From contig OX597817.1 in assembly GCA_951406725.2 (NCBI GenBank), forward strand, positions 140,678,001 through 140,742,000: DNA of 64,000 bases, given 5' to 3'. Each line of letters starts with the position of its first letter. Positions within the stretch are counted from its first letter, which is position 1. Below are positions 41,100 to 45,082 of this stretch, in pieces. A program made the position numbers and the translations under genes. The notes under the pieces were generated by a model. The model searched no databases, was not told the origin of the DNA, and saw only the letters and a list, made by a program, of their open reading frames with translations. The stretch is from Octopus vulgaris (taxonomy: Eukaryota).

Positions 41100-41137
41100 G
41101 ATTTGAAAACCCACTAGAATGGGAGCAAGCGCTAATC
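41100..41137 (+). ncRNA. Variant minimal HHR (U3-A8; GCAA in place of GAAA)
   Basis: GAU-UUGAAAA-CCCA-CUAGAA-UGGG-A-GCAA-GCGC-UA-AUC; palindromic AGCGCU. Confidence 0.55.
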
Positions 41138-41375
41138 CGAATGATATGATATATATGTAAAAAATGTAATATATAAATAAATATCTACAAATATGAACCA
41201 TCTGATCTGATTACCTCAATTTTTCTAATATATACATACATATACATACATATATACATATACATGCACATATACATACGTACATACATACATACATACA
41301 TACATACATACATACATACATACATACATACATACATACATACATACATACATACATATATGTATATTTGTATGT

Positions 41376-41675
41376 AAAGAGTAAAGGCAACCTTCGGTCA
41401 TGAATGACCATGGGATCGCAAGTAGAAAGTTCCCTTCCGAGACAAAAGTCCGGGCAAAGTTGTTTACGGAAGACTACCAGTTGCCCACGTATTCCACCCT
41501 TCTCTCTCCACGCCACTTTACCCAAGGGAAAGGCAAAGGGGCCGATACAGCTTGACACCAGTGACGTCGCAATTCATTTCTACAGCTACAGCTAAGTGAC
41601 TTGCTCAAGAACTCAGCCCCGGTCCTGGAATCGATCTCAGTACTTCATGATTGTGACTGAGCCACGCGTCTTCAC
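41376..41675 (-). mobile_element. tRNA/CORE-like SINE (family E)
   Basis: GCGTGGCTCAGT..GATCGATTCC head, TTCTTGAGCAAGTCACTT, distinct tail ending CTTTACTCTTTA. Confidence 0.65.
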
Positions 41676-42124
41676 ATACTTAGATGTATAAATATATATT
41701 AAATATATGTATACATATATATATTTGTATATATATATATATATATACATATATATGTTTGTATAAATATAAATATATATATATATATATATATATATAT
41801 ATATATATATATATATATATATATATCTACACGCATACATTTGGGTGTTTATGTGTGCCTGTATAATTCCAGTTACCAAATTCAATTATAATTATTTTTC
41901 TGTACTGTTAATTATAATTACATACAAAGAATGATCGACATTTATGTAAAATTTAATAAAATGTTACAATTCAAAAAGCAAAAATTCTTTCATTATAATA
42001 ATTGTATTGCACGAACGCGAGCGCTCACGCACATACATCATGCACACATGATATATGTGTGTGTGTGTGTGTGTGTGTGTGTGTGTGTGTGTGTGTGTTC
42101 ATATATATATATATATATATATTG

Positions 42125-42318
42125 ATAGATATGGTAAGGCAACAATCAAATGAAAGAGACCTCTATATTATGTAAATAGATGAATTTATCTGTAAATATA
42201 ATATGTGACAATTATTCGGTAGCCATGACAAACCTCCGAGTTTCGGATGTCGGGGCGGAAACCCACGCCGCTATCTCTTCAGTTATCCGGCTACCGAATA
42301 ATTGTCACATATATTTAC
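42125..42318 (-). mobile_element. Penelope-like fragment: HHR-like motif (42227-42287) enclosed by a ~31-bp inverted repeat
   Basis: GAUAA-CUGAAGA-GAU...AUC-C-GAAA-CUCGGAG-GU-UUGUC; arms ~42191-42224 and 42289-42319. Confidence 0.6.
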
Positions 42319-42823
42319 ATACACATATGTATGTATGTATGTATGTATGTATGTATGTATGTATGTATCTATGTATCTACGTATGTATGTATGCATGTAT
42401 GTATGTATGTATGTACGTATATACATAACGCACAGGTATATATATATATATATATATATATATATATATATACACACACGCATACAGAGATTTCATTGTA
42501 TAAGAGATTCCTTAATTCATCAATTGTTATATATAAGATATGTGAGTACAGATGTACATATAAATGTGTTTCTGTGTATGCATGTATATAGGAATGTGTT
42601 CTTCGTTGAATATGTATGCACATACTTACACACGTATAAACGAATACAAGTGCGTATATACACAAATATACAAACAAAATTATATGTCGTTGCATAAAAT
42701 AGTTGAACATTAAACTCTGTGTGTGTGTGTGTGTGTGTGTGTGTGTGTGTGTGTGTGTGTGTGTGTGTGTGTGTGTGTGTGCGTGTGCGTGTGCGTGTGT
42801 CTGTGTGTATTTGGGGCTTTTTT

Positions 42824-43255
42824 TCCTATTTTACTGGTTTTAACCAAAAGCTGGGATTATGCTGAAGCATCGCCTTTCAATATGCTTGGATCTTCTTTCT
42901 GCATTGTTTTTGATGAAGAAACGAGTTGGATGGCGCCTCTCTGCTTTGTGCCTGCTGCCTGCGATGTAGGATTATATGGGATTTCAGACAAAATTTTGCC
43001 CAGATGTTTGTTCAAGATCTTCACATCTACGCCTCGCAAATTTCTGAGGTTGTTTGGCAGAATGTTGAACAGTTATAATCACTGAAAACGAAGCTATTCA
43101 AGTACTGGGTCCTTATTCAAAATGGTGAAGACTAGATCCTCGGTATTATGCAATGCCGCCTTGTTCGACGGTTGGTACAGCTTTAAATTCCAAAGTTGAT
43201 AGCTAGACCTGCCAGGATCTTCCATATGTATATCACTGCATATCTTCCACGCCTT
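42824..43255 (-). mobile_element. CR1/L2-group LINE 3' fragment (older relative of the 11384 element)
   Basis: [32 protein letters not shown]; shared 3' tail. Confidence 0.8.
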
Positions 43256-44044
43256 TTGTGTGTGTGTGTGTGTGTGTGTGTCTGTCTGTCTGTCTGTGTG
43301 TGTGTGTGTGTGTGTCTGTCTGTGTGTGTGTGTGTGTGTGTGTGTGTGTGTAGAGTGTTAGGTATGATGTTCAGAAATTGAATATTGAGAAAAAAGAATT
43401 TTAGAAAAAATCCTTTTATTTCTTTATTATTAGCTCTTTCGTTCCTTTTTTCTCAATAAACACGCATATATATGTGTATATGTAAATATATGTACACACA
43501 CACACACACACACACACACACACACACACACACACACACACACACACAATATATATATATATATATATATATATATATACGTTTTTATTGTTATTTTGCA
43601 ATTTACTTAATCATCGGTATATTAATGTTATTTAATTGTTTATATTTCTATTGTATGTAATTTTCTAGATGGTGTAATTTAATTGTTCGTTTTGAATTGA
43701 TAAAAGGTAGTTTTTTTAAAATTTTTTTATATATAATATATTTTGTGAAATTTGATTTAGTATTTCTAAATTGAATTTTTCCCTGTAAGTTAGGAATAAT
43801 ATTCCCTCAAATTATATATATATATATATATATATATATATATATATATATATATATATATATATATATATATATATATATATATATATATATATATATA
43901 TATATATATATATATATATATATATACCTTATAACATTGTTTGTTTTTATAGTTATATATGATGCAGTTGAATATCAAATTGAACGTTTGATCGATACTC
44001 TTCAATACAGTCCGTGTATGTATGCATATATATAAATATAAATA

Positions 44045-44850
44045 GGATGCACTGGCCCAGAAGGGACTTCAATTCCTAAGTCCCTGAATCAAAATCAGCG
44101 TGTAACCTGGGCATTGACTTGAGTAATGATGCATCTTTCCAGGTGCATATTACTAATTTGGGAATAGAATGCGGACGGCTAGCTGGATGGATTCTCCGAA
44201 CTATCAGAACGAGAGAAAAGGAAACTATGGTGGTGTTTTGGAGGACATATGTCCTCAGCTGCTTGGACTATTGCTCCCAACTATGTTCATGACATAGTAT
44301 AAAATTAACGGCGGAACTTGAAGTAATCCAATGAAGTTACACAAAGAAAATCGTCTCAACGCCACGTATCAGCTACTGGCAGAGGCTGAAAGAGTTAAGA
44401 CTCTTCTCCTTAGAACGAAGTGGTATGCAACTGGAAAATCCTGGAAAGACTTGTACCAAACTTTGGTATTGAAAGTTACACAGACAGCAGAACGTGGCCC
44501 ACTGCATTGTACCAAACAGCCCACCATAACCTTCACAATACAGCACAAAGTACTGCAACATCTTGGATTTCAAGGGCCGACAGATCTTCAATATCCTTCT
44601 ACCAAAATGCCTGAGAGACCTGCAGGGTGTCGATGTAGGAGCCTTGAAAACAAAACCGAATCTCCTCCTGTTAAGGGTTCCAGATGAGCCTATACCACAG
44701 CAGGAAGCGCAGATGAGGACAGCAGCATCAAACTCCCTCATTCACCACATGCCACATATCAGAGGAGGTTTCAAATAAGGAAGGTGTAACACAGCCAACG
44801 GTGTTGCCCCGGCATGACCGCAGCTTTAAAGATGAAACACGTTAAAGAGT
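44045..44850 (+). mobile_element. CR1/L2-group LINE 3' fragment
   Basis: [39 protein letters not shown]; homologous to 11400-12200. Confidence 0.85.
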
Positions 44851-44909
44851 TTCACATACACACACACAAACACACACACACACACATATATATATATATA
44901 TATATATAT

Positions 44910-45082
44910 TAGAAGGTTTGGAGATGATGCACAGGTATTATATAATAGAAGAAATAAGGTAGTCAGAAATCTAGATGGTTTTATATTTACAGATATTTAT
45001 TAATATGTCACATGTTTTTATAAATCATATAATAGCGCTTGCGTCCACTCTCGTGGAGTCTTCAGTCTTCTGAAGACTCCAC
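44910..45082 (-). mobile_element. Penelope-like terminal fragment, HHR variant at 45033-45065 and a 13-bp foldback
   Basis: CUGAAGA-C-UCCAC-GAGA-GUGGA-C-GCAA-GCGC-UA; inverted repeat 45053-45065/45070-45082; tail matches 41175-41230. Confidence 0.65.

What the first reader, a model, noticed from the sequence alone, without database searches (positions are those of the whole stretch)
41100..45065. Hammerhead variant with GCAA instead of GAAA, retained in two diverged copies whose other pairs covary
Seen: 41100-41137 (+) UUGAAAA-CCCA..UGGG-A-GCAA-GCGC-UA and 45033-45065 (-) CUGAAGA-C-UCCAC..GUGGA-C-GCAA-GCGC-UA, with homologous downstream tails. Between them the 3-8 pair switches from C-G to U-A and stem II changes while staying paired, yet GCAAGCGCUA is identical. 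Established: G12-A13-A14 is nearly invariant in HHRs. Inference: a possibly undescribed A13C catalytic-core variant under selection, attached to the element with the intact GIY-YIG frame. Only two copies support this.
Basis: partly seen in the sequence, partly recalled or inferred. Interest (0 to 1): 0.75.

Follow-up and report, generated by a model that had tools for sequence, protein, structure and literature searches.

The report
Penelope hammerhead with flip-flopping core letter
Both motifs are the hammerhead-shaped RNA that sits at the end of one Penelope-type jumping gene, and across this element's history one normally fixed core letter switched from A to C, back to A, and to C again (C in the youngest copies), which likely turns down the RNA's self-cutting rather than marking a new active ribozyme; cutting has not been tested.

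Summary
The two motifs are real. They are minimal hammerhead motifs in the end repeat of one Penelope-like retrotransposon lineage. Copy 1 belongs to the youngest subfamily (204 exact genomic copies, intact RT-GIY-YIG relatives); copy 2 is an old, ORF-less 165-bp insertion. GCAA was not retained between them. A flank-only tree gives a ladder A13 -> C13 (three subfamilies) -> A13 (eight) -> C13 (two youngest); monophyly of C13 is rejected (AU p 1.3e-4). GAAA copies outnumber GCAA in both contexts counted. Covariation is real: the 3-8 pair and two stem II pairs switch to other Watson-Crick pairs, one while C13 was fixed. The canonical 10.1-11.1 pair is lost. Side branches with A6G or without the cut site also spread. 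Short copies begin 22-47 nt behind a conserved TATA box, at the ribozyme's 5' edge (62 of 113), with no clear peak at the cut site. Best reading: a likely slowed ribozyme at the start of the element's own transcript, which is copied uncut. No A13C variant was found in the searched papers. The scan noted other core variants in other Penelope-like elements, but not this one. Cleavage untested.

The parts
39597..41237 (+). 5'-truncated copy of the youngest subfamily (C) of a Penelope-like retrotransposon, between (TA)n runs
   Evidence: 98.7% to full-length copy L061 over 1642 nt including microsatellite gaps; flanks
39602..40168 (+). C-terminal 188 aa of ORF2 and its stop: CX4CXXC linker and GIY-YIG endonuclease
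   Evidence: 100% to ORF2 residues 588-775 of L061; Pfam PF01541 E 1.7e-6
41067..41073 (+). TATAAAA box, 36 nt before core position 3; likely promoter of the pLTR
   Evidence: Present 35-42 nt before position 3 in all 14 subfamily consensuses and as TATAAAT in outgroup G; the 14 were collected with a TATA-containing pattern, G and the tail-anchored copies were not; function inferred
41089..41108 (+). Zone where short copies begin; inferred transcription start
   Evidence: 62 of 113 5' ends downstream of TATA-5 fall in this 20-nt zone
41096..41142 (+). Copy 1 hammerhead motif with predicted stem I (41096-41102 with 41135-41142): U3-A8, stem II CCCA/UGGG, unpaired A before G12, C13, palindromic stem III, predicted cut between 41134 and 41135
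   Evidence: Sequence; stem I pairing read by hand, outer part in MFE fold; 204 exact genomic copies of the 33-mer core
41135..41237 (+). Conserved 3' tail of the element, running into (TA)n
   Evidence: Alignments
44900..45065 (-). Copy 2: short ORF-less insertion of old subfamily B, starting at the hammerhead's 5' edge and including the tail
   Evidence: 78% to the young element; matches B copies
45033..45065 (-). Copy 2 hammerhead motif: C3-G8, C.C mismatch at 10.1/11.1, stem II UCCAC/GUGGA, C13, predicted cut after 45033
45070..45084 (+). Inverted stub of the same motif (5' core and half of stem II), forming a head-to-head junction with copy 2
   Evidence: it forms the 11-bp hairpin in the fold

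Best explanation
The motif is the minimal hammerhead fold in the end repeat of a Penelope-like retrotransposon, and the A13C change, which arose twice and reverted once in this lineage, likely slows self-cleavage of an RNA that the element appears to copy uncut. Shown: anatomy, subfamily ladder, three changes at position 13, compensated pairs, clustering of copy 5' ends. Inferred: transcription starts about 30 nt behind the TATA box, at the 5' strand of stem I, so the hammerhead lies in the first 45 nt of the element's mRNA. Efficient dimer cleavage there would remove the capped end of the message and template. Weak cleavage would therefore be favoured or tolerated, while some residual use keeps the fold and the core letters whose loss kills activity (G5, G12, A14, A15.1) on the long-lived trunk. 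C13 would act as a dimmer: A13 mutants are reported as 10-100-fold slower, and in copy 1 C13 also allows a competing hairpin that pairs G12, C13 and the bases next to the cut site.
For: Ladder and at least 3 forced changes on a tree built without the hammerhead columns; AU p 1.3e-4. Tail-anchored copies, picked without regard to the core: Z0 20 of 21 A13, Z1/Z2 18 of 20 C13, outgroup G 24 of 25 A13. G13 or U13 occur only as 45 scattered hits, with no subfamily. Null simulation: three or more changes using only A and C has P 2-5e-4 per site; two or more same-step Watson-Crick switches P 0.003; 12 core and stem III positions untouched P 3e-4 (post hoc). 5' ends: 62 of 113 at -14..+5 of position 3 (p 4e-22); 8 of 109 within 3 nt of the cut site (p 0.23). 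46 copies with A6G, 44 of them also C13; 14 exact-match copies lacking stem III and the cut site. A13 mutants 10-100-fold down versus over 100-fold for G5, G12, A14, A15.1 (PMC4075628, passage). HHR mutants did not affect insertion in vitro for another PLE (PMC11167929). Competing hairpin at 41124-41133 in the MFE fold.
Against: No cleavage or TSS measurement; only assembled contigs were available. All 16 core and stem III positions taken together are not significantly less changed than flanks (4 of 16 vs 48 of 122, Fisher p 0.41). One of 122 flank columns also toggles three times between two states (C/T). If the TSS peak is set aside, 8 of 47 ends lie within 3 nt of the cut site (p 0.009), although most of these run into (TA)n or inversions. 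The reversion C13 -> A13 needs a further assumption (fluctuating benefit, or recombination between subfamilies). Compensated pairs in a DNA hairpin can arise by template switching without selection (general knowledge). The MFE of copy 1 is no better than shuffles (z -0.6). Subfamily consensuses rest on 2-19 copies.
Confidence: 0.5

Rival explanations
1. The motif stopped being a ribozyme early (at the latest when the 10.1-11.1 pair was lost in subfamily B). It is kept for another reason, such as downstream promoter sequence or a binding site for the element's protein. Position 13 toggles through a mutation hotspot or small recombination patches.
For: 10.1-11.1 unpaired in 35 of 44 distinct rows and in all subfamilies from B on. 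The youngest subfamily has lost a base after A9 and carries an extra A before G12. A6G and cut-site-deleted branches spread. The motif lies just downstream of the inferred TSS. No clear cut-site peak.
Against: The 3-8 pair went C-G -> U.G/U-A -> U-A and stem II pair 10.2-11.2 went U-A -> C-G after that loss; the 3-8 pair is a tertiary pair of the catalytic fold, not a DNA hairpin pair. Position 13 returned to the catalytic consensus A. The damaged branches appear as side branches, while the trunk keeps G5, A6, A9, G12, A14, A15.1.
Confidence: 0.27
2. C13 is a fully active natural core variant, perhaps needing the element's protein, and A and C are two equally good states at position 13 in this fold.
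For: C13 stayed fixed through three successive trunk subfamilies, during which a stem II pair switched U-A -> C-G. Only A or C is ever fixed. The youngest, intact subfamily has C13. Another PLE hammerhead is protein-assisted (PMC11167929).
Against: A13 mutants are reported as 10-100-fold slower. C13 favours a competing hairpin in copy 1. A6G arose and spread on a C13 background. No A13C natural variant in the core-variant section of PMC3088659.
Confidence: 0.18
3. The register is different: the GA just upstream (end of GGA or GGGA) serves as G12-A13, and the toggling base sits in a small insertion before A14, like the U13a insertion variant.
For: It would explain free A/C toggling. An insertion in the GAAA stretch is tolerated in one natural hammerhead (PMC3088659).
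Against: It breaks the covarying 4-6 bp stem II in every subfamily except possibly C. The outgroup G has a fully canonical G10.1-C11.1 then GAAA in the standard register.
Confidence: 0.05

Closest known systems
Minimal hammerheads (min-HHR) in pLTRs of metazoan Penelope-like elements (Cervera and de la Pena 2014, PMC4209133; parts 1-2 of 4 read, results and discussion)
   Same: Type I topology, palindromic rudimentary stem III (predicted dimer), short stem I, position in the pLTR, U3-A8 variant, inverted pairs and solo copies, low expected activity.
   Different: C13 in five subfamilies; conserved G10.1-C11.1 pair absent; extra base before G12 in the youngest subfamily; repeated switching at one core position is not described in the text read (figures and supplements not seen).
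PAc Poseidon element of Anolis (Frangieh et al. 2024, PMC11167929; main text read, parts 1-2 of 4)
   Same: AT-rich targets, 30-40 nt optional tail, hammerhead near the ORF start; HHR mutants do not affect insertion; no RNA ends at the cut site.
   Different: Different clade; single ORF; canonical C3-G8 core with protein-assisted cleavage shown; here the motif is about 160 nt upstream of ORF1 and cleavage is untested.
Natural core variants of hammerheads (Perreault et al. 2011, PMC3088659; section 8 and passages read)
   Same: U3-A8 covariation, mismatches at 10.1-11.1, slow but active variants.
   Different: The text lists A6C, A6a, U13a and U15.1-A16.1, not A13C; its Figures 5, S6 and S7 could not be seen.
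Neptune/Nematis-type EN+ Penelope-like elements (Craig et al. 2021, PMC8557442; passages read)
   Same: [quoted passage not shown]
   Different: Clade not placed on a reference tree; the paper reports canonical HHRs for C-terminal EN+ PLEs.

Membership tests
EN+ Penelope-like element | RT followed by C-terminal GIY-YIG endonuclease | tested here: met
   L061 ORF2, 775 aa: RVT_1 E 3.9e-10, GIY-YIG E 9e-6; 1368 homologues at E <= 1e-30, named ones mostly from bivalves or bivalve-associated samples
EN+ Penelope-like element | Partial tandem (pLTR), inverted 5'-truncated copy, optional 30-40 nt tail | tested here: met
   L061: inverted copy, pLTR, ORFs, pLTR; tail present in part of the copies
Neptune clade | CX2-5CxxC linker between RT and EN, CCHH motif | tested here: met
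   CX4CXXC and CxxC..H..H read in the translation; Nematis shares the linker
Neptune clade | Placement with Neptune on an RT tree | not tested
   No labelled reference sequences were at hand
PLE minimal hammerhead | Core Y3 U4 G5 A6 N7 R8 A9 with a 3-8 pair | tested here: met
   3-8 paired in 41 of 44 distinct rows: UA 21, CG 18, UG 2
PLE minimal hammerhead | G12 A13 A14 A15.1 | tested here: not met
   C13 in both window copies and in subfamilies Z1, Z2, B, C0, C; met in the other nine and in outgroup G
PLE minimal hammerhead | Stem II with covariation | tested here: met
   Pairs 10.2-11.2 and 10.4-11.4 switch U-A to C-G; covariation score 0.244 vs 0.142 shuffled and at most 0.095 slid (relatedness inflates the shuffle test)
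PLE minimal hammerhead | G10.1-C11.1 pair | tested here: not met
   A-U in 9, unpaired in 35 of 44 rows; G-C only in outgroup G
PLE minimal hammerhead | A15.1-U16.1, palindromic stem III and NUH triplet | tested here: met
   A-U in 43 of 44 rows; 6-bp AGCGCU duplex predicted; triplet CUA (CUU in Z0)
PLE minimal hammerhead | Stem I | tested here: inconclusive
   The two proximal pairs hold in 90% of cells; the outer part is weak and changes between subfamilies
Hammerhead ribozyme (functional) | Site-specific self-cleavage | not testable with these tools
   No raw reads; copy ends show no clear cut-site peak
Rfam hammerhead families | Covariance-model match | tested here: not met
   No hammerhead hit at E <= 10 for either motif

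The most novel reading that the evidence does not exclude
Position 13 is an evolutionary on/off or dimmer switch of a retrotransposon ribozyme. The element's transcript starts at the hammerhead, and the lineage has repeatedly been selected to flip A13 to C and back, trading protection of its capped message against a benefit of cleavage. The genome thus holds an ordered series of 14 natural ribozyme versions in which the open question of what Penelope hammerheads are for can be tested one change at a time.
Probability: 0.25. Interest if true: 0.75.

Novelty: new variant of a known kind. Interest (0 to 1): 0.5.

Why it matters
The role of hammerheads in Penelope-like elements is unsettled: they are nearly universal in C-terminal EN+ elements, yet slow and dispensable in vitro (PMC8557442, PMC11167929). 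This lineage offers matched natural pairs on either side of three switches at one core position (Z0/Z1, B/A0, D4/C0), plus natural A6G and cut-site-deleted branches and a canonical outgroup. If C13 slows cleavage, selection tunes these ribozymes down. If it does not, the hammerhead consensus and the search descriptors built on GAAA miss a class of active variants.

Tried and rejected
Rfam scans: the whole-window listing showed only low-complexity artefacts in the 150 of 420 rows shown; nothing relevant on either motif. Reading copy 1 as a decayed copy was rejected: 40 of 40 scored matches were 100% identical over 200-201 nt. A third independent origin of C13 in family G was rejected: 2 scattered copies, 29 of 30 similar copies have A13. 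Sequencing runs: no RNA holder on record was listed and only contigs could be laid, so ends and expression could not be read. Five apparent cut-site ends (L377-L381) are near-identical duplicates of one copy matched to the wrong subfamily and were counted once. The forced 1.1-2.1 pair was not honoured by the cofold, so those stem I energies are not used. The first alignment had wrong coordinates for three rows and was replaced, from which two off-length rows and L314 were left out (51 of 54 references plus the two window copies); MAFFT shifted the gap in the five C rows by several columns. The bacterial promoter scan is not applicable. Literature: 'A13C' with hammerhead gave 0 papers; searches showed no A13C PLE variant in their listings. 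Lunse et al. 2017 and Nelson and Uhlenbeck 2008 were not held, and the deep-mutagenesis supplement of PMC9901934 had legends only. Any of these, and the figures and supplements of PMC4209133 and PMC3088659, may already contain A13C data.

Full report
Observation. Both motifs are in the window as described. Copy 1 has its core at 41103-41134 on the + strand and copy 2 at 45065-45033 on the - strand; the tails are 78% alike over 175 nt. Rfam does not recognise either. The window lies in a 2.8-Gb animal genome. Named homologues of the element's protein come mostly from bivalves or bivalve-associated samples; 'octopus-like' is my inference and a label in other scan notes, not a tool result.

The element. 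Copy 1 ends a 5'-truncated insertion, 39597-41237, between (TA)n runs. Its 188-residue frame is identical to the C-terminus of ORF2 of a full-length copy, L061. L061 shows an inverted truncated copy, a pLTR, ORF1 (535 aa, no Pfam hit), an overlapping ORF2 in the -1 frame (775 aa, RT plus GIY-YIG) and a second pLTR. With the CX4CXXC linker, the (TA)n targets and the optional tail, this fits a Neptune/Nematis-type Penelope-like element as described in PMC8557442 (passages). The subfamily is very young: 40 of 40 scored matches were 100% identical over 200-201 nt, and the 33-nt motif has 204 exact copies. Contigs with the same C13 motif and no differences occur in runs X2, X7, X11, X12 and X16, under three organism codes, so it is not an assembly error. 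Copy 2 is a 165-bp insertion of an older subfamily with an inverted stub and no ORF.

The ladder. Pattern and similarity searches gave 14 subfamilies of 2-19 sampled copies each. I named them Z0, Z1, Z2, B (copy 2), A0-A3, D1-D4, C0 and C (copy 1). Position 13 reads A in Z0, C in Z1, Z2 and B, A in A0 to D4, and C in C0 and C. A tree of 82 of 95 copies (at most 10 per subfamily), built with the hammerhead cut out, needs 4 changes of this label, of which well-supported branches force 3; a single C13 clade is rejected (AU p 1.3e-4). C is the youngest end. Z0 shares upstream and tail letters with outgroup family G (read), which roots the ladder at Z0. G and the more distant families have GAAA. 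So C13 arose twice and reverted once; it was not retained from copy 2 to copy 1. GAAA is the majority: 568 vs 147 exact hits in the GGAC context and 64 vs 34 in the first 100 of 1327 hits in the GGGA context. Copies picked by their tail alone confirm the states: Z0 20 of 21 A, Z1/Z2 18 of 20 C, G 24 of 25 A. G13 or U13 occur only as 45 scattered hits.

Is the fold under selection? Along the ladder the 3-8 pair goes C-G, then U.G or U-A, then U-A. Stem II pairs 10.4-11.4 (Z1 to Z2, with C13 fixed) and 10.2-11.2 (A3 to D1) switch from U-A to C-G. On 44 distinct copies the covariation score is 0.244, against 0.142 shuffled and at most 0.095 slid; relatedness inflates the first control. A null simulation with flank rates gives P 0.003 for two same-step switches, P 3e-4 for 12 untouched core and stem III positions, and P 2-5e-4 per site for three changes using only A and C. 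These tests are post hoc, and the last is about 0.005 after allowing for 16 core positions. Against selection: all 16 core and stem III positions together are not significantly less changed than 122 flank columns (p 0.41), and one flank column also toggles three times between C and T. The 10.1-11.1 pair is A-U in Z0-Z2, a mismatch from B onward, and in C one partner is deleted. A branch with A6G has 46 copies, 44 of them with C13. A Z0 branch lacking stem III and the cut site has 14 exact-match copies on 12 contigs. Cleavage is therefore not needed for a copy to spread in the short run.

Where the RNA starts. A TATAAA box lies 35-42 nt before position 3 in all subfamilies and in G. I mapped 5' ends of 217 tail-anchored rows (99, 118). 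104 extend beyond the TATA box. Of the other 113, 62 begin within -14..+5 of position 3 (p 4e-22). Twelve rows (8 after collapsing five duplicates) begin within 3 nt of the predicted cut: p 0.23 overall, p 0.009 if the main peak is set aside, with most of them blurred by (TA)n runs or inversions. I read this as reverse transcription running to the 5' end of an uncut RNA that starts at the hammerhead. A minor cut-site class is not excluded. This agrees with PMC11167929 (main text read), where hammerhead mutants did not affect insertion and no RNA ends mapped to the cut site. The promoter described for D. virilis Penelope is TATA-less (PMC2377424, passages), so the TATA reading here is an inference from conservation and spacing.

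Mechanism. If the transcript starts at stem I, cutting after CUA would remove the capped first 40-45 nt of the element's mRNA. A slow ribozyme is then favoured or tolerated. PMC4075628 (passage) reports 10-100-fold inhibition for A6, A9 and A13 mutants and more than 100-fold for C3, G5, G8, G12, A14 and A15.1. The trunk changes position 13, the 3-8 pair as a pair, and positions 7, 17 and 10.1-11.1, but never G5, G12, A14 or A15.1. In copy 1, C13 also permits a 3-bp hairpin over G12, C13 and U16.1 in the MFE fold, though that fold is no more stable than shuffles. I put the slowed-ribozyme reading at 0.5, a dead relic kept for another role at 0.27, a fully active variant at 0.18 and an alternative register at 0.05.

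Known and new. Minimal hammerheads in PLE pLTRs, their dimer mode, low activity and U3-A8 variant are published (PMC4209133, parts 1-2 of 4 read; PMC3088659, section 8 and passages). A13C was not found in nine full-text searches (listings seen). PMC2837043 mentions two cricket satellite clones altered at A13, base not given in the passage. PMC9901934 (passages) gave no value for this position. Lunse et al. 2017 could not be read, and figures and supplements of the papers above may bear on novelty. Other unreviewed notes of this scan report different fixed core changes (A6U, U4C, G3-C8) in other PLEs, so a deviant core in a spreading PLE is a recurring theme; no note matched this sequence. What is particular here is the repeated switch at one position along an ordered series, which can be tested directly. 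Verdict: new variant of a known kind, interest 0.5.

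Noticed in passing
L061:4058-4145: ORF1 (535 aa, no Pfam hit) overlaps ORF2 in the -1 frame by about 90 nt, with an A-rich/T-run stretch near 4063-4076; a programmed frameshift is likely but no convincing downstream structure was predicted.
   Followed up: partly
window 23480-23525 (-): Another minimal hammerhead-like motif of an unrelated family: U3-A8 core, U-rich stem II, GAAA, CCGG palindrome, UC triplet and a 4-bp stem I.
   Followed up: no
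window 62285-62320 (+): Weak hammerhead-like match (UUGAAGA ... GGAA CCGG UA); probably decayed or chance.
   Followed up: no
L463-L476: A Z0 branch with a 6-7 nt deletion of stem III and the cut site spread to at least 14 sites; one copy (L463) is attached to ORF2 remnants.
   Followed up: partly
L477-L491: A Z1 branch with A6G plus C13, and U.U or G.U at 10.1-11.1, has 46 exact-pattern copies.
   Followed up: partly
L253-L282 (family G): Sister family with a fully canonical G10.1-C11.1 and GAAA but U3-A8, apparently an independent origin of the U3-A8 pair.
   Followed up: partly
subfamilies A2-D2 (e.g. L101, L111, L122): A short insertion upstream of the core and a later complementary segment downstream of the cut site create a 6-7 bp distal stem I in A3, D1 and D2, which is lost again in D3.
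   Followed up: partly
L031 (G000:C31:436968-437168): Matches window 41035-41235 over all 201 nt including the first target-side base; possibly a duplicate assembly of this locus.
   Followed up: no
window 44040-44800: Non-microsatellite stretch that looks like a decayed retroelement fragment by eye; not identified by any search.
   Followed up: no
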